From positions 58,528,001 to 58,592,000 of the forward strand of contig OZ024743.1 in assembly GCA_964016885.1 (NCBI GenBank): a stretch of DNA of 64,000 bases, read 5' to 3'. Position numbers and translations under genes: made by a program. Shown piece after piece: positions 6,013-64,000 of this stretch; position 1 is the stretch's first letter; the number at the start of each line of letters is the position of its first letter. Under the pieces are notes generated by a model. That model did no database searches, was not told the origin of the DNA, and was given only the letters and a program-made list of their open reading frames with translations. This stretch comes from Eledone cirrhosa. Lineage: Eukaryota.

Positions 6013-6390
6013 ATGGATTGGCAGTATCGTAGTGGGTTGGACGCCATGCTTTGACGCATAGAATTACGGCTCTTGCCATTCTGAGTTCAAATCCCGCTGA
6101 GGTTAACTTTGCCTTTCATCCTTATGGGGTCGATAAAATAAAGTACCAGTAATGCATTGGGTATTTGCTGGCCTTGTGCCAAAAATAGAAACAATAATTA
6201 TATGCGGTTGATTGGCAGTATCGGTAGCGCGTAAGACACCATGATTTACAGCATTGGATTATGGCACTTTACGTTCTGAGTTCAAATCCCGCCGAGGTTA
6301 GCTTTGCCTTTCATCCTTACGGGGTCGATAAAATAAAGTACCAGTAATATACTGGAATAATTGCTGGCCTTGTGCCAAAAATAGAAACAT
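6013..6390 (+). mobile_element. Two tandem tRNA-derived SINE copies (6013-6197, 6204-6390)
   Basis: Head-to-tail copies of the same consensus. Confidence 0.85.
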
Positions 6391-17033: not shown

Positions 17034-17092
<59 letters not shown>

Positions 17093-17095
<3 letters not shown>

Positions 17096-17214
17096 GTGGT
17101 TACACAACAGTTAGTTCACCATAACGAGAACAATTGTTTTACCTTGGCGGATCCTCAACTCGTCCCATGGACTGAGTGCTCTACCACTACGGATATTACC
17201 TTCCAGTGTTCTAC

Positions 17215-17217
<3 letters not shown>
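17093..17217. mobile_element. 125-bp minimal derivative of the Penelope-like element at 34275-36043 (both termini only)
   Basis: Left part matches 34275-34337, right part matches ~35984-36043; junction in the HHR core; (TA)n on both sides. Confidence 0.8.
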
Positions 17218-17258
<41 letters not shown>

Positions 17259-17261
<3 letters not shown>

Positions 17262-17722
17262 TAGAAGGGATATTTAATTTGTTGAAAACCCAACAAATAT
17301 AAATGTTTATAACTGGTTCAGAGCACTCGACAAGTTGTCTGGTGTAAGTAGTCAATGATATTAAATAAATGGAAACTATATTTATAAAACCATATTTATT
17401 CAATTATATATATTTCAAGTGTACCAAATAAAACTTTGGTACGCTTTCATCAGATAAAATACAAAGTTTGGTTTATAAATAGACATACCCAGGAAAATCT
17501 TACCTGATCAGTTAAATATACCTGATCAGTTAAATATTCCCTGGATACTATCCAGGGAATATTTAACTGATCAGGTATGATTTTCCTGGGTATGTCTCTA
17601 TTTATAAAACAAACTTTGTATTTTATCTGATGAAAGCGTACCAAAGTTTTATTTGGTACCCTTGAAATATATATAATTGAATAAATATGGTTTTATAAAT
17701 ATAGTTTCCATTTATTTAATAT

Positions 17723-17727
<5 letters not shown>
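17259..17727. mobile_element. Fold-back pseudo-LTR module of Penelope-like element PLE-1 (arms 17353-17547 / 17549-17727, tail 17259-17352)
   Basis: Palindrome centred at 17548 (ccctggata-c-tatccaggg); 18-bp duplication in the left arm; (TA)n both sides. Confidence 0.85.
17619..17683 (+). ncRNA. Type I hammerhead ribozyme motif, family D (mirror copy 17397-17461 minus strand)
   Basis: tattttat-CTGATGA(17627-17633)-aag.gtaccaaa...tttggtac.ctt-GAAA(17664-17667)-tatata-TA-attgaata. Confidence 0.8.
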
Positions 17728-17780
<53 letters not shown>

Positions 17781-17783
<3 letters not shown>

Positions 17784-20773
17784 CAGAAGGGATATTCAAT
17801 TTGTTGGTAATTCAACAAATATAAATGTTTATAACTGATTCAGAGCACTCGACAAGTTTTCTGGAGTAATATTCAATGATATTAAATAAATGGAAACTAT
17901 ATTTATAAAACCATATTTATTCTATTATATATATTTCAAGCGTACCAAAACTTTGGTACGCTTTGAAGGCCTCAAGAATAAAATAGACAATCCAGAAAAA
18001 ACTAAGAGGATCCTCGTAAAATCTGATAAAACAAATAATTTATATAATATGGAAAATGACGAATATAATAACCTTATATTGAAAGAACTCAGAAAAAACT
18101 ACAAAATAACATCAAATGAAGATCTTTCAACGTTAAATAGAGAAGCTTCTGAAATTATTTATAAATTAGGCATCCAAAATAGGACTGACCCCTTTATACC
18201 CAGGAAACCGAAAATTAACCTGAAGGACAACAAAAGAAATTTTGAAATTGAACTACCAGTCACACTCATCGCACCATCTAAATCGGACTTAGCCATAATT
18301 AGCAAACATATATTACGTAGATAGAATTAGCCCACTACTTAAAGAAAAATCACACCTTAAACTATGGAACGGTACTAATGAAGTTATAGATTGAGTCAAT
18401 AACATAAAATTAAAACATAACAAAAAATTCATTCAAATGGATATTGCAAATTACTACTCCTCTATTACCCATAATTTACTTTAAAAGGCACTTATCTACG
18501 CGTCTAAATATACAGACCTATCTAGTGATGAAATGAATATAATTCTAACAGCACGTAAAACACTAATAGAGTTTAATAATCATCTCTGATGATAAGGCTG
18601 AATATTATAATGAAGCTTTACATAGAACAGGATACTCGAATAAAATTAAATACATAGATAGCAATAACATGACAAATCCATCCTATTAAATATAATAATA
18701 ATAAACAATTTAACTTAAACACTAAACCAAACAAAAAACCTAGAACTAGAAATATTATTCGTTAAAACACCTTTAGCAAAGCTATTCTTTAAAGCACTAG
18801 ATAAATGTTTTCCTAAAGCCAACAGATACCACTCTATTTTTAACAGACATACTATAAAACTATCCTACTCTACTACTATGAACATAGCACAAAATATAAA
18901 TAGAATTAATAACAGAAACTTAAATTTAAACCCTAACCAAACTAACCAAAATAGCAATAATAATATTTCTAACAACAATATTTCTAACAACAAGATTCAG
19001 AATAATAGTAGCGTTCCGAACAACAACTCCAGAAAATGTAACTGTAGAATCAAACGAAACTGCCCTTTCCAAAATAATTGTTTAGACAAAAACGTAGTTT
19101 ATAAATGCGCAGTTAAAACTAGAGACAAAATATTTAACTATATTGGTGCCACTTCAACAAAATTTAAAGAACGCTGGAATAACCATAAACACATATTTAG
19201 GAGAGCTGATAAAAAATCTTCTACTTCACTTTCACATCTAATTTGAACTTAAAAGACAACAATATAGACTATTCAATATCTTGGAGAACGATTTCGAAAG
19301 CACCTGCATACCGAAATATGGCTTTATCAAGATTCTGTAACTTGTGTATCGAAGACATTTTTTATATAATTAATTGTCAAAACTCTATTAATCTTAGAAC
19401 AGAATTATTTTCTTCTTGCAGACATCGCCAAAATTCCACGTTCAGAACTAGTTTTAATTTATAATATTCCTATACACCTTCAAAATGATCCTATCTTCTT
19501 TAAAAATTTAAATGTAAATTTTTTTAAATTTTGTAATATTTTAAATATTTTTAATATTTCTAATTTTTTTTTTAATATCTCTAATATTTCTAATATTTTT
19601 ACCTTTTCACATTAATTAAAAAATATATATATATATATATATTTTTTAAATATATATATATTTAATATTTTTTTAAATATATATATATTTAATATTTTAA
19701 ATTCTGAGATTATTTTTCTAATGACACCCCTCTAAATATATTATTTTAGATGTAGATTGATAATCTTTAATTGACATTCTGAACATTTATCCTCTTTACG
19801 ATAGTTCTTCGAAAAGCACATTACGTTTTTCCTATCTTTTTGATATGCAAACATTCACACATCTTTCGACTAAAATAATTAATCTCACACAAAACAATAT
19901 ATAATTTCTCTATATATTTTTGAATAAATCACTCATCAAATTTAACGGTTAACAAACAAAATTGGAGTTATCTTTCCTTTTTCAATCGTGCAAATATAAC
20001 ATATTATGTATGATAATCTATATAACTTCGCTAAATTAACAATATTCTGAAAACATTTTCAATGTTGAACAAAATATTCGAATCTACAAATTGTTCTCCT
20101 CTCACAACTTGAACCACCTATTTGTTTATGTAAAATACAAAATCAACTTCCTTCGTAACTCATATTAGAAATATATACAACTAATAATTGTAAATTATTT
20201 CTATTTCTATAATACTAAAACATACGCAATTATTAATCGATATAGAAATTTATATACATATAACCTATTGTAATGTAATAAGATAAAAATACTTACAACC
20301 ATAATTCTTCATATAATCTAATTGATTATATATACAATATTATACCTCATAATATAGGTAAATAGATTTAAATTTAAACTCTGGAATCATATTCCACTTT
20401 TCCCCCAAATTAACGTAAATACAAGCTCTTCTTCCTTTTTCTTCTTTCCTACGCATACATACACATATCATAATTATTTAAATTCTCCATAGCGTCTAAA
20501 ATAATTTTTTTTCAGCCTGTCACCTCAACTTCATTTGCACACTCATTTGCATACTCATCTTAACAATTTGAAATATCTGACTTTTCTTCTCTTATCCCTT
20601 CACTATCCAAGCAAAACTTGAACCGTTAAGGTATTTTCCTTGGTTATGTCAAAATTTATAAAACACACTTCGTATTTTATTTGATGAAAGCGTAACAAAG
20701 TGTTGGTGCCTTTGACATATAATAGAATAAATATGGTTTTATAAATATAGTTTCCATTTATTTAATATCATTG
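17781..20773 (+). mobile_element. Penelope-like retroelement PLE-1, 5'-truncated, with inverted 3' copy at its 5' end
   Basis: Inverted terminal copy 17781-17964 joined to the RT/GIY-YIG pseudo-ORF, ~1.3-kb AT-rich 3' region ending in a decayed HHR (20673-20730); (TA)n both sides. Confidence 0.85.
17965..19464 (+). pseudogene. Penelope-like RT-GIY-YIG polyprotein, disrupted (Nematis/Neptune-like)
   Basis: ILVKSDKTNNLY, INLKDNK.NF, LIAPSKSDL..ISK, FIQMDIANYYSSI, IFNRHTIKLSYS, CNCR.K..CPF...C....VVYKC ... YIGATSTKFKERWNNHK, CNLCIED; stops and deletions. Confidence 0.9.
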
Positions 20774-20857
20774 TATATATATATATATATATATAAAATA
20801 TTAAAAAAATAATGAATAAAACAATGAAACAGTTCCTTATATTAAACAAAAAAAGTT

Positions 20858-21008
20858 CATTATTTAACGATCGTTTCTAGGATATATATGTGTTAGAATT
20901 GGCATGCATATTCAACAGATCTATGTACAAAATTATACAAAATTATACAAACTATCAAAATTAAATATACATACCCAACACATATATATGCCGTCTTCAG
21001 AAATAATG
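20858..21008 (-). ncRNA. Type I hammerhead ribozyme motif, family E, with ~116-nt extended stem II
   Basis: Minus strand: cattattt-CTGAAGA-c gg c atatatatgtgttggg...tctaacacatatatat cc t a-GAAA-cgatcg-TT-aaataatg (perfect 8-bp stem I); inside a (TA)n-flanked insert ~20795-21043. Confidence 0.75.
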
Positions 21009-21039
21009 GACACTACCGTAAACTCTTGGTAGATTTATC

Positions 21040-21096
<57 letters not shown>

Positions 21097-21102
<6 letters not shown>

Positions 21103-21280
21103 ATATTAAATAAATGGAAACTATATTTATAAAACCATATTTATTCTATTATATATATTTCAAGGGTACCAAAACTTTGTTACGCTTTCATCAAATAAAA
21201 TACGAAGTGTGTTTTATAAATTTTGTCATAACCAAGGAAAATACCTTAACGGTTCAAGTTTTCCTTGGATAGTTAGGGAT
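21097..21280 (-). mobile_element. Inverted copy of the PLE-1 3' end with HHR (21142-21202, TTGATGA core variant)
   Basis: Reverse complement of ~20597-20773; 8-bp stem I tattttat/atagaata. Confidence 0.8.
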
Positions 21281-21559
21281 ATATATGTATAGTAACACTG
21301 CTCAACACTACAGTTGGGCACTAAATTACGAATAGAATTGAGTTTTACGTCTTTTGTGTTTAAAATAGTCCCCGAGGGTGTATTTTTCAATTAATTACTT
21401 GTATAATAGTTGTAGCTTAACCTTTTACAATTCACTATATTAAACTTCATGGGAGGTGAATTGGCAGAGTCGATAGAACGCGGAAATAATGCTTTGCAGT
21501 AGTCAGTCATAGCTTAGCTGTTCATCTTTCTAGGTAGATAAAAAAATGTCCAGTACTGG

Positions 21560-22649: not shown

Positions 22650-25073
22650 TAAGCTAGATTGACTTCCTGCTAGTTAGTCAGCGATACAGACAGATGGTGT
22701 CAAATTCTAAGGCATACCCCGGGGAAGAATGTACCCCACAGCATAGGTTAGTCGTTAGTGACATCTCAGTAAGCAAGAGAAAGAATGAGACATACAGGAA
22801 GGTGTGGAAAAGAAAAGAAGGTCTGGAAGCTAAAAGACCTTTTATTAAAATATAAATTTAGCAAAGCCCTTCAAGATGTGTCTGACGAAAAAGAAGACGA
22901 TTTAGATTTGTTTGACATAGATGATAACTGGAATTTCTTGCGTGACAACTTACTGCAGGCTACTGAAGTAACTTGTGGTTGGGCAGAGCTTCAACCAGAC
23001 AGAGAGTGACCTGGAGGTGGAACAGCGCGGTAGATAGGGCCATTAGAGAGAAAAGACTGGCATGGTAGGCTTGGAAAAATGGTGGGAGTAGAGAAGGATA
23101 CACAGCCACTAAGAGAGAAGCTAGACGTCAATGTACTTAGCACGCAGGGAGGCTGAGAGTGGGGGGTTTGCCAATGTTCTGCAACGGGAAGATCAGAGAC
23201 GTGCGGTGTTCCGCTTTGCAAGGCAGTGTGTCAGTGCGAATCAGGATGTTGTTGGAGATAAGTGTGTCCGGAATGATGCCGGTGTATTTAGTGTCACGAA
23301 TGATCAAAAAAAGGAGGCCTGGAAATGTCATTATGAGAGACTGATGAATGTGGAGAACGAATGGGACAGAGAGAAATTACCCACAGTAGGCTCGACAGAA
23401 GGACCAGCTATTGAGATTGACGAATATAGGGTACAAGAGGCAATTAAGGAAATGAAGACTGGTAAGGCTGCTGGACCGTCAGGGATAGTTGCTGATATGC
23501 TGAAGGCATCAGGAGAAGTAGGCACTAAACTAGTTGCACGCATCATTAATCAAGCTATATATGGTGGTGTCATACCCAAAGACTGGTGCAGCAGTATTCT
23601 CATAAATTGCTACAAAGGTAAAGGGGATGCTCTAGAGAGGAGCAATTATAGGGGCATAAAGCAGATGGATCAGGTTATGAAAGTGGCAGAGAGAATATTA
23701 TCGCAACTGATTAGAGAAAGGGTCAAATTAGATGAGATGCAGTTTGTGCTTCGGAAGAGTACAACAGATGCCCTCTTCTTAGTGAAGCAACTACAAAAGA
23801 GGTTCTTAGAGAAGAATAAGCCACTATACTTAGCTTTCGTTGACCTAGAGAAGGCCTTTGATAGGGTACCCCGATTTCTCATCTGGTGGTCCCTAAGGAA
23901 ACTAGGTGTAGAGGTATGGTTTGTGAGGACAGTGCAAGCTATGTACAGCGGTGCTGTCAGTAAAGTGAGAATAGGAATGGAGTTTAGTGAGGAATTCCAG
24001 ATACAAATAGGTGTACATCAGGGTTCGGTCCTCGGCCCGCTCTTGTTCATTATAGTCCTCCAAGCCATAACAGAGGAGTTTAAGACTGGCTGCCCATGGG
24101 AACTTTTCTATGGTGAGGATCTGGTTCTTATAGCAGAATCAGTAGAGGAGCTAGAGAATCAATTCTGGCTATGGAAACAGCAGTTGGAATCAAGATGCCT
24201 GAACATAGCTAAGATGAAAGTGTTGATAAGTAGAAGAGAGGACAATACTCAGGGAAATGGCCATGTTCGATATGTAGGAAAGGAACTGGCATAAATTCCA
24301 TAAAATGCAGATCTTGGGTACACAAGAGATGTAGTGGGATAGCAGGCAAACTAATAGGTAGGGAAAACTACGTATGCAGTAGATGTACAGGGAAAGTTGG
24401 CAGTCGTAATCGCAGTGATAGACACATTTTTCCGATGCAGGTGGTTCTATAGATGTGGTTGATAGCTTCCGGTACCTAGGTGATCAGATTAGTATGGGAG
24501 GGGAGTGTTCCAAGGCCTTAGTATCTATAATAATGACGGGTTGGCAGAAGTTTAGAGAGCTGCTTCCTCTGTTGACAAAGAAGGGTTTCTCACTGCGGAC
24601 GAAAGGACGGTTATATGATGTCTGTGTGAGATGCGCGATGCTGCATGGTAGTGAGACACGGGCAACAACTGCAGAAGATATGTGACGGCTGGAGAGAAAT
24701 GAAGCAAGTATGCTCCGTTGGATGTGCAATGTCAATGTGCGTGAACTACCAAGCATAGACGAGTTGAAAAGGAAACTCGGTATAAGAGGGGTAAGTTGTG
24801 GTGTGCAGCAGACATGGCTGAGATGGTATGGACATGTGATGCGTATGGAGGATGACCGCTGGTTAAAGAAGTGCCAAGAAATCCTAGTAGAAGGGTAGAC
24901 CACGAAAAGCATAGGCGGAGGTGGTGAGAGCAGACCTCAGATCACTGAAACTCACCGAGGAGATGACGAAGGACCGTGACAAGTGAAGAGATGATGTGCT
25001 GAATAGGACCCGTCCAACCCTTGCAAGCAGGGAAAAGCGGACGTAAAATGATGATGATGATGATGATGATGAT
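22650..25073 (+). mobile_element. RTE-clade LINE, 5'-truncated and decayed, with (ATG)n tail
   Basis: Endonuclease end (IDFLL, ECTPQHRLVV), RT (GKAAGPSG, NYRGI, FVDLEKAFDRVP, GVHQGSVLGPLLF, YGEDL for YADDL), MLHGSET, LRWYGHVMR; (atg)n at 25048-25073. Confidence 0.92.
23131..24294 (+). pseudogene. Reverse transcriptase ORF of the RTE LINE (catalytic YADD mutated to YGED)
   Basis: 387-aa ORF with RT motifs; frameshifts on both sides. Confidence 0.9.
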
Positions 25074-34007: not shown

Positions 34008-34043
<36 letters not shown>

Positions 34044-34235
34044 GTTTTAATATAGATGAGATTCTACAGGACTAGAACTGTTTCATTCTTTAGAAATCAT
34101 CAGGAATCCTGATGATTTCTAAAGAATGAAACAGTTCTAGTCCTGTAGAATCTCATCTATATTAAAACTTTTATACTCTGCAATGTATTGAGTACCTTAC
34201 TTACTGTGGTTACCTCCGATTCAACCCGGAATAAC

Positions 34236-34236
<1 letters not shown>
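34044..34236. mobile_element. (TA)n-flanked fold-back module, family F (perfect arms 34044-34104 / 34108-34168, 68-nt tail)
   Basis: Palindrome centred at 34106; second copy at 44827-45019. Confidence 0.9.
34059..34109 (-). ncRNA. Type I hammerhead ribozyme motif, family F
   Basis: ggattc-CTGATGA-t ttc taaa gaa t-GAAA-cag ttctagtc ctg-TA-gaatct; GUA cleavage triplet. Confidence 0.8.
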
Positions 34237-34276
<40 letters not shown>

Positions 34277-34300
34277 TGGTTACACAACAGTTAGTTCACC

Positions 34301-34346
34301 ATCCCGAGAACAATTGTTTCACCTTCGCGGATCTTCAGCTCGGGAT
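34301..34346 (-). ncRNA. Type I hammerhead ribozyme motif, family G
   Basis: atcccgag-CTGAAGA-t cc gcgaa gg t-GAAA-caattg-TT-ctcgggat; perfect 8-bp stem I, palindromic stem III. Confidence 0.88.
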
Positions 34347-34862
34347 GTGTATGGTTATAGGAACAGGAAGGACAACCGTACGAACGCGCATGCGCAGAAA
34401 CTCGGTCACTTCACAGGGGCAATACTAGACTGCGTGCGGGATGGTGTAAGTGAGATAACTGCGAAAGTCCGGAAAGTTTTTAGGTTGAAAATAAAATAAA
34501 AAAATTAAAAATAAAATTACAAAGAATCAGTCCGGAACCTTGTAGTTATGCAATAGATGTTTGGTGACGTGTGGACAACATGTGAAAAATTCACTTCTCA
34601 GGTTTAGGCAATTACTATTGCGTAATCTCTTTAGGATAGATATTCGTTCGTCAATACATAAGCCACACGTCGGATTTCCCCTTTCGTATAGCTTGGACTT
34701 AGTGATGGCTTTCCATTGAATGGAGTAGCCTATACTTGAGTCCTTGAGGGACCATACGTGGCTCGCGAGTCTCGTGGATACCCGGAGTCTGTCCGGGTAT
34801 CTGAAGGTAGACTGGTGGTTCAGGAAACGCTCCTTGAATCGGCCCTCCGCCATGCCCACAAG

Positions 34863-35723
34863 GACTCATGCCACCCACCCACTGTTTTCAGAAACTTCGT
34901 TAAGAATATGAGTACTAGAATCTCAAACCTCTGTTCTAATAAGGCTATCTTTGACAGAGCGGCACCCTACTATAACATGGCGTTGGCTAACAGCGGCTTC
35001 TCACAACCTATCACCTACTCTCCCACTAGCAACAACACCATTAAGAAAAGTAAGCGCATCAATAGACAAACTATCTGGTTCTCTCCTCCCTTCTCACTCA
35101 ACGTTAAAACCAATGTAGGAAAAAAATGTCTAGCCCTCTTAGATAGACACTTCCCCATAGGTCATAAATACCGCTCCATCTTTAACCGACACAAAGTTAA
35201 ACTAGGATAATCCTGCGCTAAGAACATGAAAGCCCACATCACCAGCAGCCCTAGGAGCCGCACCCCACCAGGGTGCTCTTGCCGTAAGCCTGAAGCTTGC
35301 CCCCTTCAACAGCAATGCAACACACCAGCTGTAATCTATGAAGCTGTGGACACTTCCAACCGACCAAACGAACCACAGGAGGTCAAATCCTATGTGGGCA
35401 TGGCGGAGGACCGATTCATGGAGCGTTTCCTGAACCACCAGTCTACTTTCAGATACCCAGACAGACGTTCATCCACGAGACTCGCGAGCCTAGTATGGTC
35501 CCTCAAGGACTCAAGTATAGGCTACTCCATTCAATGGAAAGCCATCACTAAGTCCAAACCATACGAAAGGGGAAATCCGACGTGTGGCTTATGTATTGAC
35601 GAACGAATATCTATCCTAAAGAGATTACGCAATAGTGATTGCCTAAACATGAGAAGTGAATTTTTCACATGTTGTCCACACTTCACCAAACATCTATTGC
35701 ATAACTACAAGGCTCCGGAGTGA
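34863..35723 (+). pseudogene. Penelope-like RT thumb/linker plus GIY-YIG endonuclease (one in-frame stop at 35208-35210)
   Basis: DSCHPP, APYYN.AL..SGF, IWFSPPFSLNVKTNVGK, IFNRHKVKLG*SC, CSCRKPEACPLQQQC, VIYEA...YVGMAE..F.ERF.NH, CGLCIDE, C.N.RSE...CCPH. Confidence 0.9.
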
Positions 35724-35903
35724 TTCTTTGTAATTTAATTTTTAATTTTTTTATTTTATTTTCAACCTAAAAACTTTCCGGACTTTCGCAGTTATCTCCC
35801 TTACACCATCCCGCACGCAGTCTAGTATTGCCCCTGTGAAGTGACCGAGATTCTGCGCATGCGCGTTCGTACGGTTGTCCTTCCTGTTCCTATAACCATA
35901 CAC

Positions 35904-35949
35904 ATCCCGAGCTGAAGATCCGCGAAGGTGAAACAATTGTTCTCGGTAT
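35904..35949 (+). ncRNA. Type I hammerhead ribozyme motif, family G (sense copy)
   Basis: atcccgag-CTGAAGA(35912-35918)-tccgcgaaggt-GAAA(35930-35933)-caattg-TT-ctcggtat. Confidence 0.85.
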
Positions 35950-36040
35950 GGTGAACTAACTGCTGTGTAACCACTTCTACCTAACTCGTCCCTCGGACTG
36001 AGTGCTCTAACACTACGGATATTCCCTTCCAGTGTTCCAC

Positions 36041-36113: not shown

Positions 36114-36765
36114 AAACTACAGCAATGAAGATCCGGATCTTCAGCTTTTCACGAAGGTCCGACTTCCACACCGATATCAAGCTGTGGCACGCCGCCCAGG
36201 CTTTGCTCTTCCTCTCAACCACACCATCTTCCTTATTACCAATCTTTGCTCTCAAATACAGGAAGTCCTCAACCAATTCTAGCGGCTTCCCGCCTAGATT
36301 AGTGATCCCCTCTGTGTTCTCAACATTCTCTACCAGATATTTTGTTTTAGTCTCTTCATTGATATCTTCATTGCTGTAGTGGAGTCTGTGCTGCTGTACG
36401 GGTCTGAGACTTGGACACAATGACCAAGAAACTCACTCAGATGGTGGTTGGGTGCTACACGAGAATGCTGAGGATGGCTCTGAACATTAATCAGTATACA
36501 CTGAGGATGAAAAATTCAGAGTTGTATGGGAGCCTCCCAAAAGTCAGCTCAAAAGTGACACAGAGGAGATTGAAGTTAGCTGGACATGTTCACCGACATC
36601 CAGAGTTGACATTACACTCAGTGCTCCTGTGGGAGCCCCTACACGGACACACTGGAAGAGGAAGACCAACGTTAACGTATGTTGATGCCCTAAGGACAGA
36701 CACTGGTCTGTTGGAGACGCAGGACATGGCAGCGATAATGACGGACAGAGACCGCTGGAGACATA
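36112..36765. mobile_element. RTE LINE fragment with 5' inversion (36112-36362 minus, 36365-36765 plus)
   Basis: Minus: KTKYL...VEDFLYL...KIRIFIAVV; plus continues FIAVVESVLLYGSETWT...YTRMLRMAL...RLKLAGH. Confidence 0.8.
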
Positions 36766-40208: not shown

Positions 40209-40965
40209 ATGTCTTGTTTAGAGCAAGGAATTCAACATTTTAAAGCTGAAGAATATAAAGATGCACTATCGTACTTTAATGAGTCACTAAAAACTCAGAA
40301 TAACACCAAAGAACAAAATGACGTACTACAAAAAAGATCCCAGTGTCATTTATATCTTGGTAATATCAGTTTAGCAATTGAAGATGCAAAAAAACTGATT
40401 AAAAACAAACCAGATTCTACTATAGGCTACATATTACACGGTAAAGCACTGATAAAAGCAAAAAAGTTCGAAGATGCGCTTATGGCCTACCGTAAAGGTC
40501 TAGATGTTGATCCTAACGATAAAGTTATCGCACAGTGTCTAAAAGATATGCAGAAAGCCATTGTGAGTTCTTACGAACAGAACGCTAAGAGTAAAGACAT
40601 GAATTACAACGCTGTTAATCTGTGTACGCAAGAAGCCTACCCGGGTGATGAAGAACTGGCAGAAAACGAGAGAGAAATTATTGAAATGAAAGGTTACAAT
40701 AAATTACCTTGTATATACAGTGGAATACCTGATCCTGAACAAGCATATAAATATCTACTATTGGCCAGGAAAGAAATCAAAGCTGGAAATTTATTAAGTG
40801 CTTTAAAATCATATGATGTATCCCTAAGTAGAGACCCCTTAAATTTTGATAGTTGGACCGAAAAGGCAATAGTATTAAATCAACTGGAAAGAAATGGAGA
40901 GGCATATCAATGTGTCTCGGCAATACCCTCAGAGTGTAGAAGTTCGGACAATTGGAAACTAGGAG
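40209..40965 (+). CDS. First coding exon of a TPR-repeat protein (phase-1 donor at 40966)
   Basis: 252 open codons with TPR consensus (EQGIQHFKAEEYKDALSYFNESL; RSQCHLYLGNISLAIEDAKKLI..KPD; GYILHGKAL..AKKFEDAL.AY.KGL.VDPND), in-frame stop 24 nt upstream, strong G|GTAAGT donor; upstream acceptor ttctcattttcAG at 39665. Downstream exons not identified. Confidence 0.88.
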
Positions 40966-41047
40966 GTAAGTCATGCATTTTCTCCCTATACACCTTATGA
41001 TGTATATATGTAGAACGATATTCACGTACATACATACATATACGCAT

Positions 41048-41923: not shown

Positions 41924-41964
41924 AATTTAAAAACGGAGTTAAGGACTCACGTTAATACTCTATA

Positions 41965-42152
41965 ATTTAATTGTTTCAACTTTTGGCACAAGGCCAGCAA
42001 TTATCCCAGTACATTACCGGTACTTTATTTTATCGACCCCGTAAGGATGAAATGCACAGTCAACCTCGGCGGGATTTGAACTCAGATCATAAAGGACCGT
42101 AACTCTATGCTGCAAAGCATGGCGTCCAACCCTCTACCGATACTGCCAATCC
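41965..42152 (-). mobile_element. tRNA-derived SINE
   Basis: Consensus match. Confidence 0.85.
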
Positions 42153-42204
42153 ACTATAATTTAATGAGCTCAAGGAATATATATACACATAATATACATA
42201 TATT

Positions 42205-44662: not shown

Positions 44663-45368
<706 letters not shown>

Positions 45369-49235: not shown

Positions 49236-49424
49236 GGGCGGTGGATTGGCAGTATCGGTAGAGGGTCGGACGCCATGCTTTACAGCATAGTTACGTCCCT
49301 TTACAATCTGAGTTCAAATCCCGCCGAGGTTGACTTTGCCTTTCATCCTTACGGGGTCGATAAAATAAAGTACCAGTAATGCACTGGGTAATTGCTGGCC
49401 TTGTGCCTAAAGTAGAAACAATTA
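49236..49424 (+). mobile_element. Full-length tRNA-derived SINE with 16-bp TSD
   Basis: attatattaacggggg at 49223-49238 and 49421-49436. Confidence 0.9.
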
Positions 49425-50622
49425 TATTAACGGGGGAAGAGGCGTGTTGAGATGTTAGAAAGGCATAGGACTTTAATTAACTCATTTGCATTAAGGTAAG
49501 AGAAGCTTAGCGTATTTAAGGGAGAATCTAAGAAACAATTTTTTTTTTGGGGGGGGGGGGGGCTTCAGTTTGCTTTGGAAAGCGTATAGCTTAGAATTTA
49601 ATTTAATTTAATCTTTATTTTATGTTTACTTTGAGAACAATTTAATATATTTGCCTTGAAGCAGCAATTTTTAATAAAAGAAAGGAGTGAGTAATTTTAC
49701 AATGAAGCTGTAGAAATTTAACATCTGTACATTTAACATACACATATACACCAAGTCCGAACAGAAAAGAACCAAACCTCTACTGTCACTGCCTCCGTCT
49801 CTCACCACCTCTCATTATTATGAGCAAATTGGGGTTCACGCGTTGGCTGCCCCGCAACCCCGGCGGACAGAATAGAGAATACGTTTCCCAGGAGGACAGT
49901 GAGGGAGACGCGGAGAAAGTATAAAAGATGTTATGTGGTGTTAAGTAGAGGCAGACAATATAAACAAAATAATCATAAATCATAAATAAGAAATAAAATG
50001 ATGTAGTTAGTTTACTACATAGTTTACCGCTCCCCTTTCCATACATCTGAAGTTTTAATATATGATGAATGACAATTATGCATTAGCTACCATTCTCAAG
50101 TGCTAGAGTATGCGTTTCCTTTGTAAAAATCGCTAGAAATTACGGAAAACAAACTGTGCAATAATTAGAAAGTTTCGTGATTTGTAGTTCTGTTGTTTAG
50201 AGTGCGATTCATAGTGAATCTTTTCAGCAGAGCTGGTTCTACCGTTATATAACACATATACACAATCGTAAACACATGCGCGCACACATACACATACACA
50301 CACACAGACACATACACACACATACACACATATATGTATAGATATGTATATATATGTATGCATGTATATATAAATATATGTGTGTGTAGGCACGTGGTCT
50401 ACTGGTAATGGTGTTGGACTTGCGATCATAATGTCCAGTGTTGCGTGTTGTGCTCTTGAGCAAAACACTTCATTTCACGTTGCTCCAGTTACTCAGCTGA
50501 AAATGAGTATCAGCAATAACTGGGGGTTTAACCCTACGATGGACTGGCGTCCTGTCCAGGAGGGAGTCTTGTACTCTCAGTCACTTACTTCACGCCATGT
50601 AATCGGGATAAGCAAATGAGCC

Positions 50623-55518: not shown

Positions 55519-55707
55519 GGAAAATCTACCCCGACGGTAGAGCTCAAGCCGTTTCGACGGCTATTTCTTGACCCAGAAATAGCCGTCCTAACGACTTGAG
55601 CTCTGCCGTCGGGGTTAAACATTTTCCTATTACCCACTCTACTACCCTAAGTATTGAGTACTCCGGTGCGTTATGGTCAATTTGGTTCCTTACCACACCT
55701 CCATCGT
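55519..55707. mobile_element. Family C fold-back module centred in HHR stem II (~55571)
   Basis: ccccgacggtagagctcaagccgtttcgacggctatttct-tgaccc-agaaatagccgtcctaacgacttgagctctgccgtcgggg, then ~80-nt tail. Confidence 0.75.
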
Positions 55708-58967: not shown

Positions 58968-60194
58968 TATGTTGGGCCTGTTTTTCGAAAGGTCAGCCTG
59001 CTCATACAGTGTGTCAAGCTAAATCTTCCCACGAACTACTAGGTTAAGTGTATACGTGTCCGTGGAATTCTCAGCCACTTGCACGTTAATTACATGAGCT
59101 GGCTGTTCAATTGATCGAATCAACCGGAACACTCGTATGCCAGAGCCGATAGAAGTCCATTAATCATAATGTGTATACCATTCCTTTTGTGTAATTTTCT
59201 ATAGCTCTTTTATATTACATTTAAACATTTATAAAAAGATGTGGTGTATATAAGTTAATTAATGTAGAATGTTCGGTGATTTACCGAAATTATAAATTAT
59301 TTCACTGTTGAGATTTGACCATTTGTAACATAACTGAACAAAAGGTTCTTATATTTAATCGTGATTATAATCTTAATTAAGGTAGGCACATTTTAGTAGA
59401 TTTCACTGGTTGGCAATGTATTGCCTTTTGTGGCATCCTCAAGTGTGCCAGTGTCTGTTCAACATGCCACCCAGTGAACTGATAATGTGTAATATATGCT
59501 CACTCTAGCTGAGTTCCTAGCCTCTCTCAGTTCGAAGACCGACATGCGTGGTGAAAAGCCACATCCTACACAAGATGCCTATGTTTTAGCTATCATATGA
59601 TAGTCTAACAGAACAGGTAGGATCTAGAGGAGTAAGCCTCGATAAAGATCCTGCTTGTGTCATAGAAAGCAGTAGCTCATGCGACGGTCGTCATTTTAAT
59701 TAGCTGACTCTAAAATTTTAAATACCATTGTCTTCACAGATGTTCCTCAATTAATTCGACAATGGGTTGTCTCAAATGTTCCGGTTAGTAGGAAAAGGTG
59801 AGGCACATATATTGGCACATATATTGAGGCACATATATTGTAGCCATAAGAAACAGCAAAATGAATGCTTCCCCTTTGACGGAGAGATGACTCAAGAAGA
59901 AGTTGTTTCATAGAACCGGTGGCTTATCTGGGATGGTTGGCATCAAAATGGTTAATGGTGATTTTGTCTGTTAATTCACTCAAAATCACTACTGGTTCCA
60001 TGGGCTGGTATCAATCCACTAAAAACCGTTACTAGTTCTATGAAATAAAAACACCTATTTTAAAACTTTCTTAAATTAAAACCTTCCAACATAATAAGGC
60101 TAGTTGTCACATTAGATAAAGTGATTACAGATTCTCTAAAATATGTTATCACAGATAGAATCATTCTAATCATGCATCTCTAGGGCGAATAAAA

Positions 60195-60689
60195 TCCAGG
60201 GAGATACATTGGTTCCCTACCTTTTTATCATCGTAGTGGACTATTGTATGCGCCTTGCACTGGAGAAACACCAGGACTCTGGCTTTACTGTAGCACCAAT
60301 CAAGGCAGGAGAGTTAAGGCGAAAAAGGTATCAGATGCTGAATTTGCCGACGACATAGTTTTGGTGACAAATTCAGTGAAGGAGGCAGAGGATTTGTTGC
60401 AGGAGGTTGAGACTGTGTCGATGAGTGTGGGGCTGAGAGTGAATGAGACTAAAACAAAATATCTGGTAGAGAATGTTGAGAAGCGAGAGGGGATCACTAA
60501 TATAGGCGGGAAGCCGCTAGAATTGGTTGAGGACTTCCTGTATTTGGGAGCAAAGATTGGGAATACGGAAGATGATGTGGTTGAGAGGAAGAGCAAAGCC
60601 TGGGCGGCGTGCTGCAGCTTGAGATCGGTGTGGAAGTCGGACCTTCGGAAAGACCTGAAAATCCGCCTCTTCATTGCTGTAGTGGAGTA
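60195..60689 (+). pseudogene. RTE LINE RT fragment, same family as 36112-36765
   Basis: QGDTLVPYLFIIVVDY, EFADDIVL, GLRVN..KTKY, VEDFLYLG, KIRLFIAVVE. Confidence 0.85.
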
Positions 60690-61569
60690 ATCATGCATGT
60701 GCTTGATAAAATATGACTCAGAAATAAGTGTATGTTCTCTGCTGTATTACAATGATGTATTACATGATATTTCATTAGTGTAATGTTTTCAACAGGTTAT
60801 AAAGGAATTCTTTCACAAATGTTCATATCTCCTGTTTATGTCTTTGGTAGTCACAGATGCAAATGACCTCATGATATCTGTTCGTGAATGAGTATGTGTA
60901 AGTGGGTGCGTGTGTACACCCTAACCCCCACACAAACATACACCGATATATTTACTAATAAACGCATATATTATTAAATAGATAGGCCCTACGATAGATT
61001 ATTTGAGTACTATGTTGAATAATGACCATACTTGTCTTAATTAGTAAAATTATACACACGCACCTCCCTCTCACACACACACATACACACACACACACGA
61101 ACACACACACACACACAAAATATATATATAGAGAGAGATAGATAGATTTCTTTATTAGCCACAAGGGCTCATCAAAGGCTTCATGTTTCGTTCTTTAAAA
61201 CATAAATTAGGTGAGAGCTCGTGGTCTAGTGAATATTAGAACACAAGTTCGTGAGTCTGATATCTAGAACAGGTGAACAATTGCGTCCTTGAGCAAGGAA
61301 GATGTTTTTCATGTTTATTTAGTTCTTTAAGTTGGTAAATGAGGAGAAGTGATAGCTCGGTTTTAGGCCTGTGAATATTGTACTTCCTGTCGTTTAGGTC
61401 CTGTGGAACCGGCATAACCTCTGTGGTTCTTTCAACACTAGCAATGCACGGAGAAATGGGCGTAAAACTACTTTGGTTTTCAATTATTTAATTTCACCGT
61501 GACGAAAATGATATAATTTATTAATTTCCGTCATGGCCTTGTAATTGGCTGATGTATTTGAAGAAATTC

Positions 61570-62847: not shown

Positions 62848-62913
62848 CCTCTCTCTCTCTGTCTTCGTCTGTGTATATATATATATATATAATAAATATT
62901 ATATATATATATA

Positions 62914-63740
62914 GAATTTAGGAACAGTTTAGGTATGATACATTTTATTACTAATTATATCTAAATGTTTCTTCTCTCTTCATAATGTATTTTTAACTCT
63001 GATACTGGTTCAGTCTGGTTCAAACTGAATTGGTCTGTCCCAGTCATTCATTGAGCAACATCGGTGAAGTTGGCACCCTTAACTCACAGTTGGGTGCGGA
63101 TGCATTCATGTATATATGTGTGTGTCCGCATGTATCTGTGTGTTTCTAAATATATTAATAACTCCCTCTGGTCGAGCAATCTTTGAAGTGTGGGGACAAC
63201 TGGAAAGCTTCCATTACTCATACTTCTCGCCTTCTTCACTACCTCTTCTACGGCCTCGATATGAATACCCCCTCCGCCTCCGTGGTATTTTCTTCGTGGT
63301 TATAAGAGGCTTAGCTCTGTTTCTCGACCGTTATATCGCGTGACTGTCTCCCCCTCCGCCTTTTGGGATTCTTTCTCACGTCGTGTAGACGCGTTCTTGA
63401 GACTAGTAAAATGAGGTATCCTCTTGATAAGTCGGCAGACCTCGCAAGGACTCTATATCTTTGATATATTGTTTTTGTTTATGCCACGAAACTACGTAGT
63501 CGAGGAATTTAGGAACAGTTTAGGTATGATACATTTTATTACTAATTATATCTAAATGTTTCTTCTCTCTTCATAATGTATTTTTAACTCTGATACTGGT
63601 TCAGTCTGGTTCAAACTGAATTGGTCTGTCCCAGTCATTCATTGAGCAACATCGGTGAAGTTGGCACCCTTAACTCACAGTTGGGTGCGGATGCATTCAT
63701 GTATATATGTGTGTGTCCGCATGTATCTGTGTGTTTCTAA

Positions 63741-63744
<4 letters not shown>
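62914..63744 (+). mobile_element. Family J partial tandem (591-nt unit plus 240-nt repeat) between (TA)n tracts
   Basis: 62914-63153 appears identical to 63505-63744; HHR-like motif at the junction. Confidence 0.85.
63419..63506 (+). ncRNA. Type I hammerhead ribozyme motif, family J, decayed core (TTGATAA)
   Basis: tcctc-TTGATAA-gt c ggca...tgcc ac-GAAA(63488-63491)-ctacgtag-TC-gagga. Confidence 0.65.
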
Positions 63745-63795
<51 letters not shown>

Positions 63796-63797
<2 letters not shown>

Positions 63798-64000
63798 AAC
63801 CAGTAAGACCCCGACAGCTGAGCTCAAGCCGTTTCGACGGCTAATTCTGGACTGCTAATTCTAGTCCAGAATTAGCCGTCGAAACGGCTTGAGCTCAGCT
63901 GTCGGGGTCTTACTGGTTCCTATTACCCACTCTACTACCTCAAGTATTGAGTACTTTGGTGCGTTATGGTCCACCTGGTTCCTTACCACATTTCCTTCGT
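63796..64000. mobile_element. Family C fold-back module centred in HHR stem II (arms 63796-63853 / 63863-63920), tail runs to window end
   Basis: Perfect 58-bp arms; gtcGAAAcggc ttgagctca gctg TC gggg on both strands; preceded by (TA)n. Confidence 0.85.

What the first reader, a model, noticed from the sequence alone, without database searches (positions are those of the whole stretch)
62914..63744. 1.4-mer tandem whose 5' end lies 3 nt after the hammerhead cleavage site
The 240-bp direct repeat begins at gaattta, and the junction HHR predicts cleavage at GUC|gag-gaattta. This is what reverse transcription of a self-cleaved RNA, read past one unit or around a circle, would leave. The repeats look identical although the core is doubly mutated, so the template RNA may have carried the inactive internal ribozyme, allowing the longer-than-unit copy.
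Basis: partly seen in the sequence, partly recalled or inferred. Interest (0 to 1): 0.72.

Follow-up and report, generated by a model that had tools for sequence, protein, structure and literature searches.

The report
Hammerhead-trimmed retroelement copy in octopus DNA
An 831-base non-coding insert, 1.4 copies of a 591-base unit sitting between TA repeats in what is likely an octopus-type genome, begins three bases after the predicted cut site of its own hammerhead ribozyme, which is likely functional rather than broken, so the copy was likely made from an RNA that had cut itself.

Summary
Observation confirmed. An exact 240-bp direct repeat (62914-63153 = 63505-63744, period 591) lies between (TA)n runs. 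One type I hammerhead sits at the junction, with its predicted cut after 63501, 3 nt before the repeat. It is the only strict hammerhead in 64 kb (0 hits in 300 shuffled windows).

The 'dead ribozyme' reading fails. TTGATAA swaps the C3-G8 core pair for U3-A8, a published covariation found in Penelope-element hammerheads and reported active in vitro. Contigs of two public runs with different organism labels carry the same core, not CTGATGA. One of them holds the unit as a closed 591-nt cycle, one base different from the window.

Best reading: a non-autonomous Penelope-type, retrozyme-like element. It was likely copied by a borrowed reverse transcriptase from a linear multimeric RNA cut at the upstream hammerhead and uncut at the next. 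A true circle would not predict this 5' end.

The link between the 5' end and the cut rests on one copy (chance about 0.7-2%). Pile-up of ends, cleavage, RNA circles and the partner element were not shown. This is a known kind of element and a useful lead on what Penelope hammerheads do in vivo.

The parts
62873..62913 (.). left (TA)n flank: G(TA)9 plus 22 A/T bases; inferred insertion target
62914..63153 (+). repeat copy 1 (pseudo-LTR-like), 240 bp; starts 3 nt after the equivalent of the hammerhead cut site
63154..63504 (+). unique 351 bp of the 591-nt unit; non-coding; one difference (63346) from the contigs of runs X1 and X9
63413..63417 (+). GAGGU just upstream of stem I. Predicted to pair with ACCUC 63439-63443 in the stem II internal loop (5-bp pseudoknot), or alternatively to fold back on the stem I 5' strand (off state)
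   Evidence: duplex -8.0 kcal/mol; chance 0.3%; prediction only
63419..63506 (+). type I hammerhead motif: stem I 63419-63423/63502-63506; U3-A8 core 63424-63430; long stem II 63431-63487; GAAA 63488-63491; palindromic stem III 63491-63500; predicted cut after C63501
   Evidence: core letters shared with X1 and X9
63505..63744 (+). repeat copy 2, 240 bp, identical to copy 1
63672..63733 (+). long predicted hairpin ending about 11 nt before the 3' end; candidate signal for the reverse transcriptase (inferred)
   Evidence: -35.5 kcal/mol for 63660-63760
63745..63795 (.). right flank G(TA)25

Best explanation
This is a non-coding 1.4-unit partial tandem of a 591-nt unit between TA repeats, likely a non-autonomous Penelope-type (retrozyme-like) retroelement, likely copied by a borrowed reverse transcriptase from a linear RNA whose 5' end was likely made by self-cleavage at a predicted-functional U3-A8 hammerhead. 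Shown: the repeat geometry, the motif, the absence of an ORF, the TA flanks, the + strand fold bias, and the same core in two other data sets. Inferred steps: (1) a donor with at least two hammerheads is transcribed on the + strand; (2) the upstream hammerhead cuts and the next one does not, because it is slow, favours a dimer through its palindromic stem III, and is predicted to sit mostly in an off fold; (3) a Penelope-like endonuclease/RT nicks (TA)n DNA and starts copying inside the RNA, at the AU-rich site just after the 3' hairpin, 243 nt past the uncut hammerhead; (4) it runs through the uncut hammerhead and one full unit and stops 1-3 nt short of the cleaved 5' end. This copy has one hammerhead, so on its own it could not release a unit-length RNA.
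For: Exact 240-bp repeat with period 591 and TA flanks. This matches the Penelope-like pattern of partial tandems forming pseudo-LTRs, (TA)n targets and no discernible TSD (PMC8557442 passages). The longest stop-to-stop frame inside the element is 86 codons. Strict hammerhead: 1 in the window, 0 in 300 shuffles. U3-A8 is a natural, active covariation. X1 and X9 contigs carry the same core with at most 1 difference over the pieces laid. The unit folds far better than shuffles on + (circular -173.0 vs -134.0+/-5.6, 0 of 60 as good) and at shuffle level on - (-130.3) (z -5.06). A 5-bp complement between the strand upstream of stem I and the stem II loop has 0.3% chance; pseudoknots of this kind are common in hammerheads. 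Stem III is better as a dimer duplex (-12.9) than as a hairpin (+1.5), as described for Penelope hammerheads. A purified Penelope-like protein cuts AT-rich DNA and starts RT internally, 111-118 nt into the ORF, while the hammerhead cut lies 26 nt after the start codon (PMC11167929). O. vulgaris has 31 recently active Penelope-like families (PMC13282606), and the nearest host exon is 84% identical to Octopus sinensis.
Against: The link between the 5' end and the cut rests on one copy; no pile-up was seen (table 6 is empty, with almost no reads laid). One X9 contig aligns only from 63515 (14 nt after the cut) with 29 letters loose, which may be another 5' end or a variant; unresolved. Stem I is absent from the predicted minimum-energy fold at all 11 transcript lengths tried; the active fold lies 5-8 kcal/mol higher at 37 C and 6-12 at 15 C (pseudoknot and dimer not modelled), so cleavage may be poor. 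In the anole element, hammerhead mutants did not affect insertion in vitro and no RNA-seq reads ended at the cut. 8 of 9 Xenopus dimers did not cleave in vitro. No autonomous partner was found: 0 GIY-YIG hits among 50 of 104 window frames scanned. Cleavage, expression and a donor with two hammerheads were not shown.
Confidence: 0.52

Rival explanations
1. Template jump on fully cleaved monomers: RT starts internally at +243, reaches the cleaved 5' end, jumps to the 3' end of the same or another monomer, copies a whole unit and stops at the 5' end. The ribozyme is active and no uncut multimer is needed.
For: Predicts exactly 1.4 units, one hammerhead, identical repeats and a 5' end at the cut (inference). 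End-to-end jumping by R2 reverse transcriptase is recalled, not from a call.
Against: The internal junction is seamless and identical to the X1 contig, whereas jumps usually add or lose bases (recalled). No paper held all of Penelope, template jump, hammerhead and reverse transcriptase.
Confidence: 0.15
2. True RNA circle as template (published retrozyme model): RT goes round 1.4 times and stops near the ligation point by chance or at a structural block.
For: X1 holds the unit as one 621-nt contig = 591 + 30 overlap with no flanking letters. Strong circular fold. Proposed for Penelope elements and animal retrozymes. A stable hairpin begins 10 nt after the cut (63511-63563) and could stall RT.
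Against: A ligated circle has no end at the cut site; a chance stop there is 0.7-2%. The closed contig can also come from a tandem array or from a 1.4-mer whose TA flanks were pruned in assembly. The kind of run X1 is not on record.
Confidence: 0.14
3. Ordinary random 5' truncation of a tandem Penelope-type insertion that happens to fall beside the cut site, or a boundary inherited from a parent copy; the hammerhead played no part in this event.
For: Penelope-like insertions are commonly 5'-truncated partial tandems. The coincidence was noticed after the fact among many windows. Hammerhead cleavage is dispensable in vitro for the anole element.
Against: 0.7-2% by position alone.
Confidence: 0.1
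4. One reading: the template carried an inactivated internal ribozyme, which allowed the longer-than-unit copy.
For: The core differs from CUGAUGA at two positions and the repeats are identical. The active fold is not the predicted ground state. Activity of this RNA is untested.
Against: The two changes are the compensatory U3-A8 pair. The same core is in X1 and X9, so it is a family feature. No CTGATGA version was seen in 2 of 2 runs covering the core.
Confidence: 0.06
5. Assembly artefact: the duplication was created, or a longer array collapsed, by the assembler.
For: 100% identity and microsatellite flanks; no laid record spans either flank junction. A collapsed 2.4-mer or polishing that equalised the repeats cannot be excluded.
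Against: Contigs of X1 and X9 independently read through from the repeat into the unique part, and the X1 contig also reads from the hammerhead into the repeat, so the 591 period exists outside this assembly. X1 may be the source sample; X9 has another organism label and study.
Confidence: 0.03

Closest known systems
Animal non-LTR retrozymes (Cervera & de la Pena 2020, PMC7229834, parts 2-4 of 6 and passages read, supplement not readable; Li, Clavereau & Pollet 2026, 10.64898/2026.07.22.740005, parts 1-3 of 5 read)
   Same: Non-coding, GC 42%, type I hammerhead at the unit junction, strongly self-paired unit, animal host (a mussel family is described), proposed mobilisation by Penelope-like elements.
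   Different: 1.4 units with one hammerhead rather than two or more hammerhead-bearing units. 591 nt against 150-450 nt in the 2020 paper (within the 51-972 bp range of the 2026 preprint). U3-A8 core with a long stem II. Apparently low copy, not thousands. Circular RNA not shown.
Penelope-like elements and their non-autonomous derivatives (Cervera & de la Pena 2014, PMC4209133, parts 1-2 of 4 read; Craig et al. 2021, PMC8557442, passages; Frangieh et al. 2024, PMC11167929, parts 1-2 of 4)
   Same: Partial tandem forming a pseudo-LTR, (TA)n flanks without a clear TSD, type I hammerhead with 5-bp stem I and palindromic stem III, 3' end downstream of the cut site beside a stem-loop. U3-A8 core as in the Schistosoma Cercyon family.
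   Different: No RT/GIY-YIG ORF. The repeat starts after the cut site, so the hammerhead is not duplicated in both pseudo-LTRs. No autonomous partner identified.
Plant LTR retrozymes (Cervera et al. 2016, PMC4918200; PMC5680766; passages read)
   Same: Direct repeats of a few hundred bases around a unique non-coding core; unit of about 600 nt.
   Different: Those have a type III hammerhead in each LTR, PBS/PPT and 4-bp TSDs. Here there is one type I motif outside the repeat and microsatellite flanks.
R2 and L1Tc elements with 5' HDV-like ribozymes (review PMC6765202, passages read)
   Same: Works like them if the reading holds: a self-cleaving ribozyme sets the 5' end of the RNA that is reverse transcribed.
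   Different: Different ribozyme class; autonomous, protein-coding elements; no partial tandem.

Membership tests
Type I hammerhead ribozyme | Core with 3-8 Watson-Crick pair, GAAA, NUH triplet, three stems, open stem I | tested here: met
   U3-A8 variant accepted on PMC3088659 and PMC4209133
Type I hammerhead ribozyme | Match to an Rfam hammerhead model | tested here: not met
   no hammerhead family listed; the variant core and 57-nt stem II may explain this (not tested)
Type I hammerhead ribozyme | Active fold accessible in context | tested here: inconclusive
   1.4 kcal/mol above the minimum locally, 5-8 in element context, pseudoknot and dimer not modelled
Type I hammerhead ribozyme | Self-cleavage at the NUH site | not testable with these tools
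   needs an in vitro assay
Animal non-LTR retrozyme | At least two tandem units each with a complete hammerhead (criterion for an active retrozyme in the 2026 preprint) | tested here: not met
   one hammerhead at this locus; the closed contig in X1 leaves longer arrays elsewhere possible
Animal non-LTR retrozyme | Non-coding unit, GC under 50%, strongly self-paired | tested here: met
   GC 0.42; 63% paired in the circular fold
Animal non-LTR retrozyme | Expressed as a circular unit-length RNA | tested here: inconclusive
   closed 591-nt contig in run X1, whose kind is not on record
Non-autonomous Penelope-like element | Partial tandem forming a pseudo-LTR, microsatellite flanks, no ORF | tested here: met
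Non-autonomous Penelope-like element | End shared with an autonomous Penelope-like family of the host | not testable with these tools
   no genome held; none in the window
Non-autonomous Penelope-like element | Dispersed copies with a common 3' end | tested here: inconclusive
   one search shows no loose ends at 63153; too few records laid
Autonomous Penelope-like element | ORF for RT and GIY-YIG endonuclease | tested here: not met
   longest frame inside the element is 86 codons
Plant-type LTR retrozyme | Type III hammerhead in both repeats, 4-bp TSD | tested here: not met
   single type I motif outside the repeat; TA flanks

The most novel reading that the evidence does not exclude
The 591-nt unit is a low-copy, viroid-like hammerhead RNA circle that moves between animal species almost unchanged, and this locus is a captured DNA copy whose 5' end records in vivo self-cleavage. 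That would be direct genomic evidence that Penelope-type hammerheads set the template's 5' end. Basis: 14 of 24 listed runs (11 organism labels, 10 studies) hold half or more of the sampled words; two laid runs with different labels share one unit, 1 base from the window; one holds it as a flank-free cycle; about 3.9 billion letters of raw reads under a third label gave no near-identical read. The labels are coded and may be close relatives, mixed samples or the source itself.
Probability: 0.15. Interest if true: 0.78.

Novelty: new variant of a known kind. Interest (0 to 1): 0.45.

Why it matters
What hammerheads do for Penelope-like elements and animal retrozymes is open. One review of the group calls the function unclear. 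The only reconstituted element did not need cleavage and showed no RNA ends at the cut. The standing model is a circular template. A family whose genomic 5' ends map to the cut site would show cleavage in vivo and would favour a linear template over a circle, and this can be counted from one genome assembly. I found no paper reporting such a 5'-end mapping or a hammerhead element in octopus (searches; open-licence papers only; supplements of PMC7229834 and of the 2026 preprint were not seen and may list one). With one copy, this is a lead and not a result.

Tried and rejected
Whole-genome family analysis: no genome held. Rfam gave no hammerhead hit. Pattern scans: metagenome contigs gave 1 locus, a 20-base match in unrelated GC-rich sequence. 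Viral contigs gave 0 twice (the gap was too short for this stem II). Prokaryote genomes gave 120 loci from too loose a pattern, none aligning over more than 35 bases. No RNA holder was listed; this is no evidence on expression. Raw Hi-C reads X22 and X23 laid 5 and 3 partial reads, none 95% alike or better; one copy would be expected to give 2-11 reads under assumed genome sizes of 2-5 Gb, so the element is scarce or absent in those samples. Conservation of the ribozyme in the diverged X9 contig (63480-63584, 12 differences, 2 gaps, depth 2) cannot be claimed: only 7 of 12 differences are listed, and those near contig ends seem to be left out. A co-transcriptional on/off switch was tested and only weakly supported (gap 5 -> 8 kcal/mol, never favourable). 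A G(TA)n target-site duplication is possible but unprovable: G precedes 34 of 160 (TA)6+ runs in the window. No tRNA gene was found in the window; T-runs in the unit argue against a Pol III unit (inference). Earlier scan notes held no look-alike. PMC5785218 (dimeric Penelope hammerheads) was not held; literature searches for 'U3A8' and 'C3U/G8A' added nothing.

Full report
OBSERVATION. 62914-63153 and 63505-63744 are identical for 240 bp and diverge at offset 240; the spacing is 591. The 831-bp insert is flanked on the left by (CT)n, G(TA)9 and 22 further A/T bases, and on the right by G(TA)25. A type I hammerhead motif spans 63419-63506. It has a 5-bp Watson-Crick stem I, core TTGATAA, a 57-nt stem II region closed by G-C, GAAA, a palindromic stem III and a GUC triplet ending at 63501. 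The repeat begins at 63505, three bases after the predicted cut. Because the flank ends in TATA, the junction can also be read as one base after the cut with a G missing. A strict descriptor finds this one motif in 64 kb on both strands, none in 300 shuffled windows and none in 20,000 shuffled units (descriptor written after seeing the motif). A random start falls this close with probability 0.7-1.9%. Rfam lists no hammerhead here. No second family member is in the window, and no genome is held.

THE CORE IS NOT A DEAD CORE. In hammerhead numbering, TTGATAA is C3->U with G8->A. C3 and G8 form a Watson-Crick pair in the active structure (PMC3884650, passages). Perreault et al. state that these positions covary to U3 and A8 in natural ribozymes and that such ribozymes had been shown active in vitro (PMC3088659, passage). 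Cervera and de la Pena found U3-A8 in the Cercyon Penelope-like family of Schistosoma, with about 1,300 hits (PMC4209133, parts 1-2 of 4). I laid 4 of the 24 listed runs on exactly one unit (63030-63620). Run X1 gave one contig covering the whole unit with a single difference, at 63346. Run X9 gave a contig over 63266-63452 with the same single difference. Both therefore read TTGATAA, and the predicted CTGATGA consensus was seen in 0 of the 2 runs that cover the core. X1 may be the source sample; X9 carries another organism label and study.

OTHER SIGNS OF A SELECTED RNA. The unit folds better than shuffles on the + strand only: circular -173.0 against -134.0+/-5.6 (0 of 60 shuffles as good), and -130.3 on the - strand (one search gives z -5.06 for the linear unit). 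GAGGU at 63413-63417 is complementary to ACCUC at 63439-63443 in the stem II internal loop (duplex -8.0 kcal/mol, chance 0.3%). This resembles the stem I-stem II pseudoknots predicted in about 40% of hammerheads. Stem III is unstable as a hairpin (+1.5) and stable as a dimer duplex (-12.9), as described for Penelope-type motifs. Against efficient cleavage: stem I is absent from the minimum-energy fold at all 11 transcript lengths tried, and the active fold costs 5-8 kcal/mol at 37 C (1.4 in the local fragment). Pseudoknot and dimer were not modelled. The 3' end lies about 11 nt after a long predicted hairpin, at an AU-rich site. No frame inside the element exceeds 86 codons.

HOST AND DISTRIBUTION. 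An exon at 40209-40970 is 84% identical to an Octopus sinensis protein and 82% to Argonauta hians, so the host is likely an octopod. O. vulgaris has 31 recently active Penelope-like families (PMC13282606, passages). In one search, 20 of 24 listed runs hold the stretch or part of it; 14 hold half or more of the words, under 11 organism labels and 10 studies. Only X1 and X9 of these were laid. The X1 contig is 621 nt = 591 + 30, starting at 63458 and ending at 63487: a closed cycle with no flank. That fits a circle, a tandem array, or a 1.4-mer whose TA flanks were pruned; the run's kind is not on record. Raw Hi-C reads of a third label (X22, X23; 1,938 million letters each) gave 5 and 3 partial reads, none 95% alike or better, and no pile-up of ends. 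The family is thus not abundant there, and the 5'-end test could not be run. One X9 contig aligns from 63515 with 29 loose letters; 12 pieces of table 8 and about a fifth of that run were not seen, so its meaning is open.

MECHANISM. The layout is the Penelope-like signature: a partial copy ahead of a full one forming a pseudo-LTR, in (TA)n, with no discernible TSD (PMC8557442, passages). A purified Penelope-like protein nicks AT-rich DNA and starts reverse transcription inside the RNA, downstream of the hammerhead cut (PMC11167929, parts 1-2 of 4). I infer that RT started 243 nt past a hammerhead, read through it uncut, copied one more unit and ran off a 5' end made by cleavage at the previous hammerhead (confidence 0.52). 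A slow, dimer-favouring, mostly off-folded ribozyme accounts for one cut and one uncut site without any inactivating mutation. A ligated circle has no end at the cut site, so it predicts random 5' ends (0.14). A linear cleaved template predicts a peak there, whether by an uncut multimer or by a jump between cleaved monomers (0.15; jumping is recalled from R2, and one search found no paper on it for Penelope). Chance truncation gets 0.10, a dead internal ribozyme 0.06 and an assembly artefact 0.03. The 591 period is seen outside this assembly, but no record spans the flanks. Results against any role for cleavage: hammerhead mutants did not impair insertion by the anole protein and no RNA-seq reads ended at its cut, and 8 of 9 Xenopus dimers did not cleave.

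COMPARISON. It works like an animal non-LTR retrozyme (PMC7229834, parts 2-4 of 6; preprint 10.64898/2026.07.22.740005, parts 1-3 of 5). It fails the preprint's criterion of two hammerhead-bearing units at this locus, so I do not file it as an active retrozyme. It meets the structural marks of a non-autonomous Penelope-like element; the shared end with an autonomous partner could not be tested, and 50 of 104 window frames scanned gave no GIY-YIG hit. It is not a plant-type LTR retrozyme (passages). Earlier scan notes in other genomes describe the same general kind (unchecked AI notes, not used as support).

VERDICT. The feature is real and belongs to a known class. It is a variant with a U3-A8 core, a predicted pseudoknot, a single hammerhead and a 5' end at the cut. 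I found no report of such 5'-end mapping or of an octopus hammerhead element (open-licence papers only; the supplements of PMC7229834 and of the preprint were not seen). Its value is that it points to a countable test of whether Penelope-type hammerheads cut the transposition template in vivo. Interest 0.45. The boldest reading, a near-invariant RNA circle moving between species, has probability 0.15 and interest 0.78 if true.

Noticed in passing
window 63793-63923: Perfect hairpin with 61-bp arms and a 9-nt loop, directly after the right TA run. A 79% relative lies at 55528-55707. It is unrelated to the unit and looks like a separate foldback repeat.
   Followed up: partly
window 40209-40970 +: Exon of a TPR/MYND/SET protein, 84% identical to Octopus sinensis and 82% to Argonauta hians. 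No further exon was found in the window by tblastn.
   Followed up: partly
window 23125-24294 + and 60193-60690 +: Two reverse transcriptase remnants (Pfam RVT_1); clade not tested. 60440-60683 has a 92% inverted relative at 36116-36358.
   Followed up: no
window 2140-57974, many places (e.g. 6014-6200, 41962-42154, 49241-49429): A dispersed family of about 185 bp, 82-92% alike, more than a dozen copies on both strands, SINE-like.
   Followed up: no
window 63511-63563 (and 62920-62972): Stable predicted hairpin just after the cut site. The diverged X9 contig lacks one T at 63520 and one A at 63554, which would remove one base pair of this hairpin (single contig at depth 2).
   Followed up: partly
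window 63380-63401 with 63508-63530: Alternative predicted helix that would extend stem I and hold the two ends of a cleaved unit together.
   Followed up: partly
window 62892-62913: The interrupted part of the left flank contains TAAATAT, the same seven letters that end the element (63738-63744); may be chance in A/T sequence.
   Followed up: no
window 34019-35979, 44790-45121, 17057-21281: Several young, long inverted or nested repeats at 92-99% identity, e.g. 34271-34864 vs 35979-35388.
   Followed up: no
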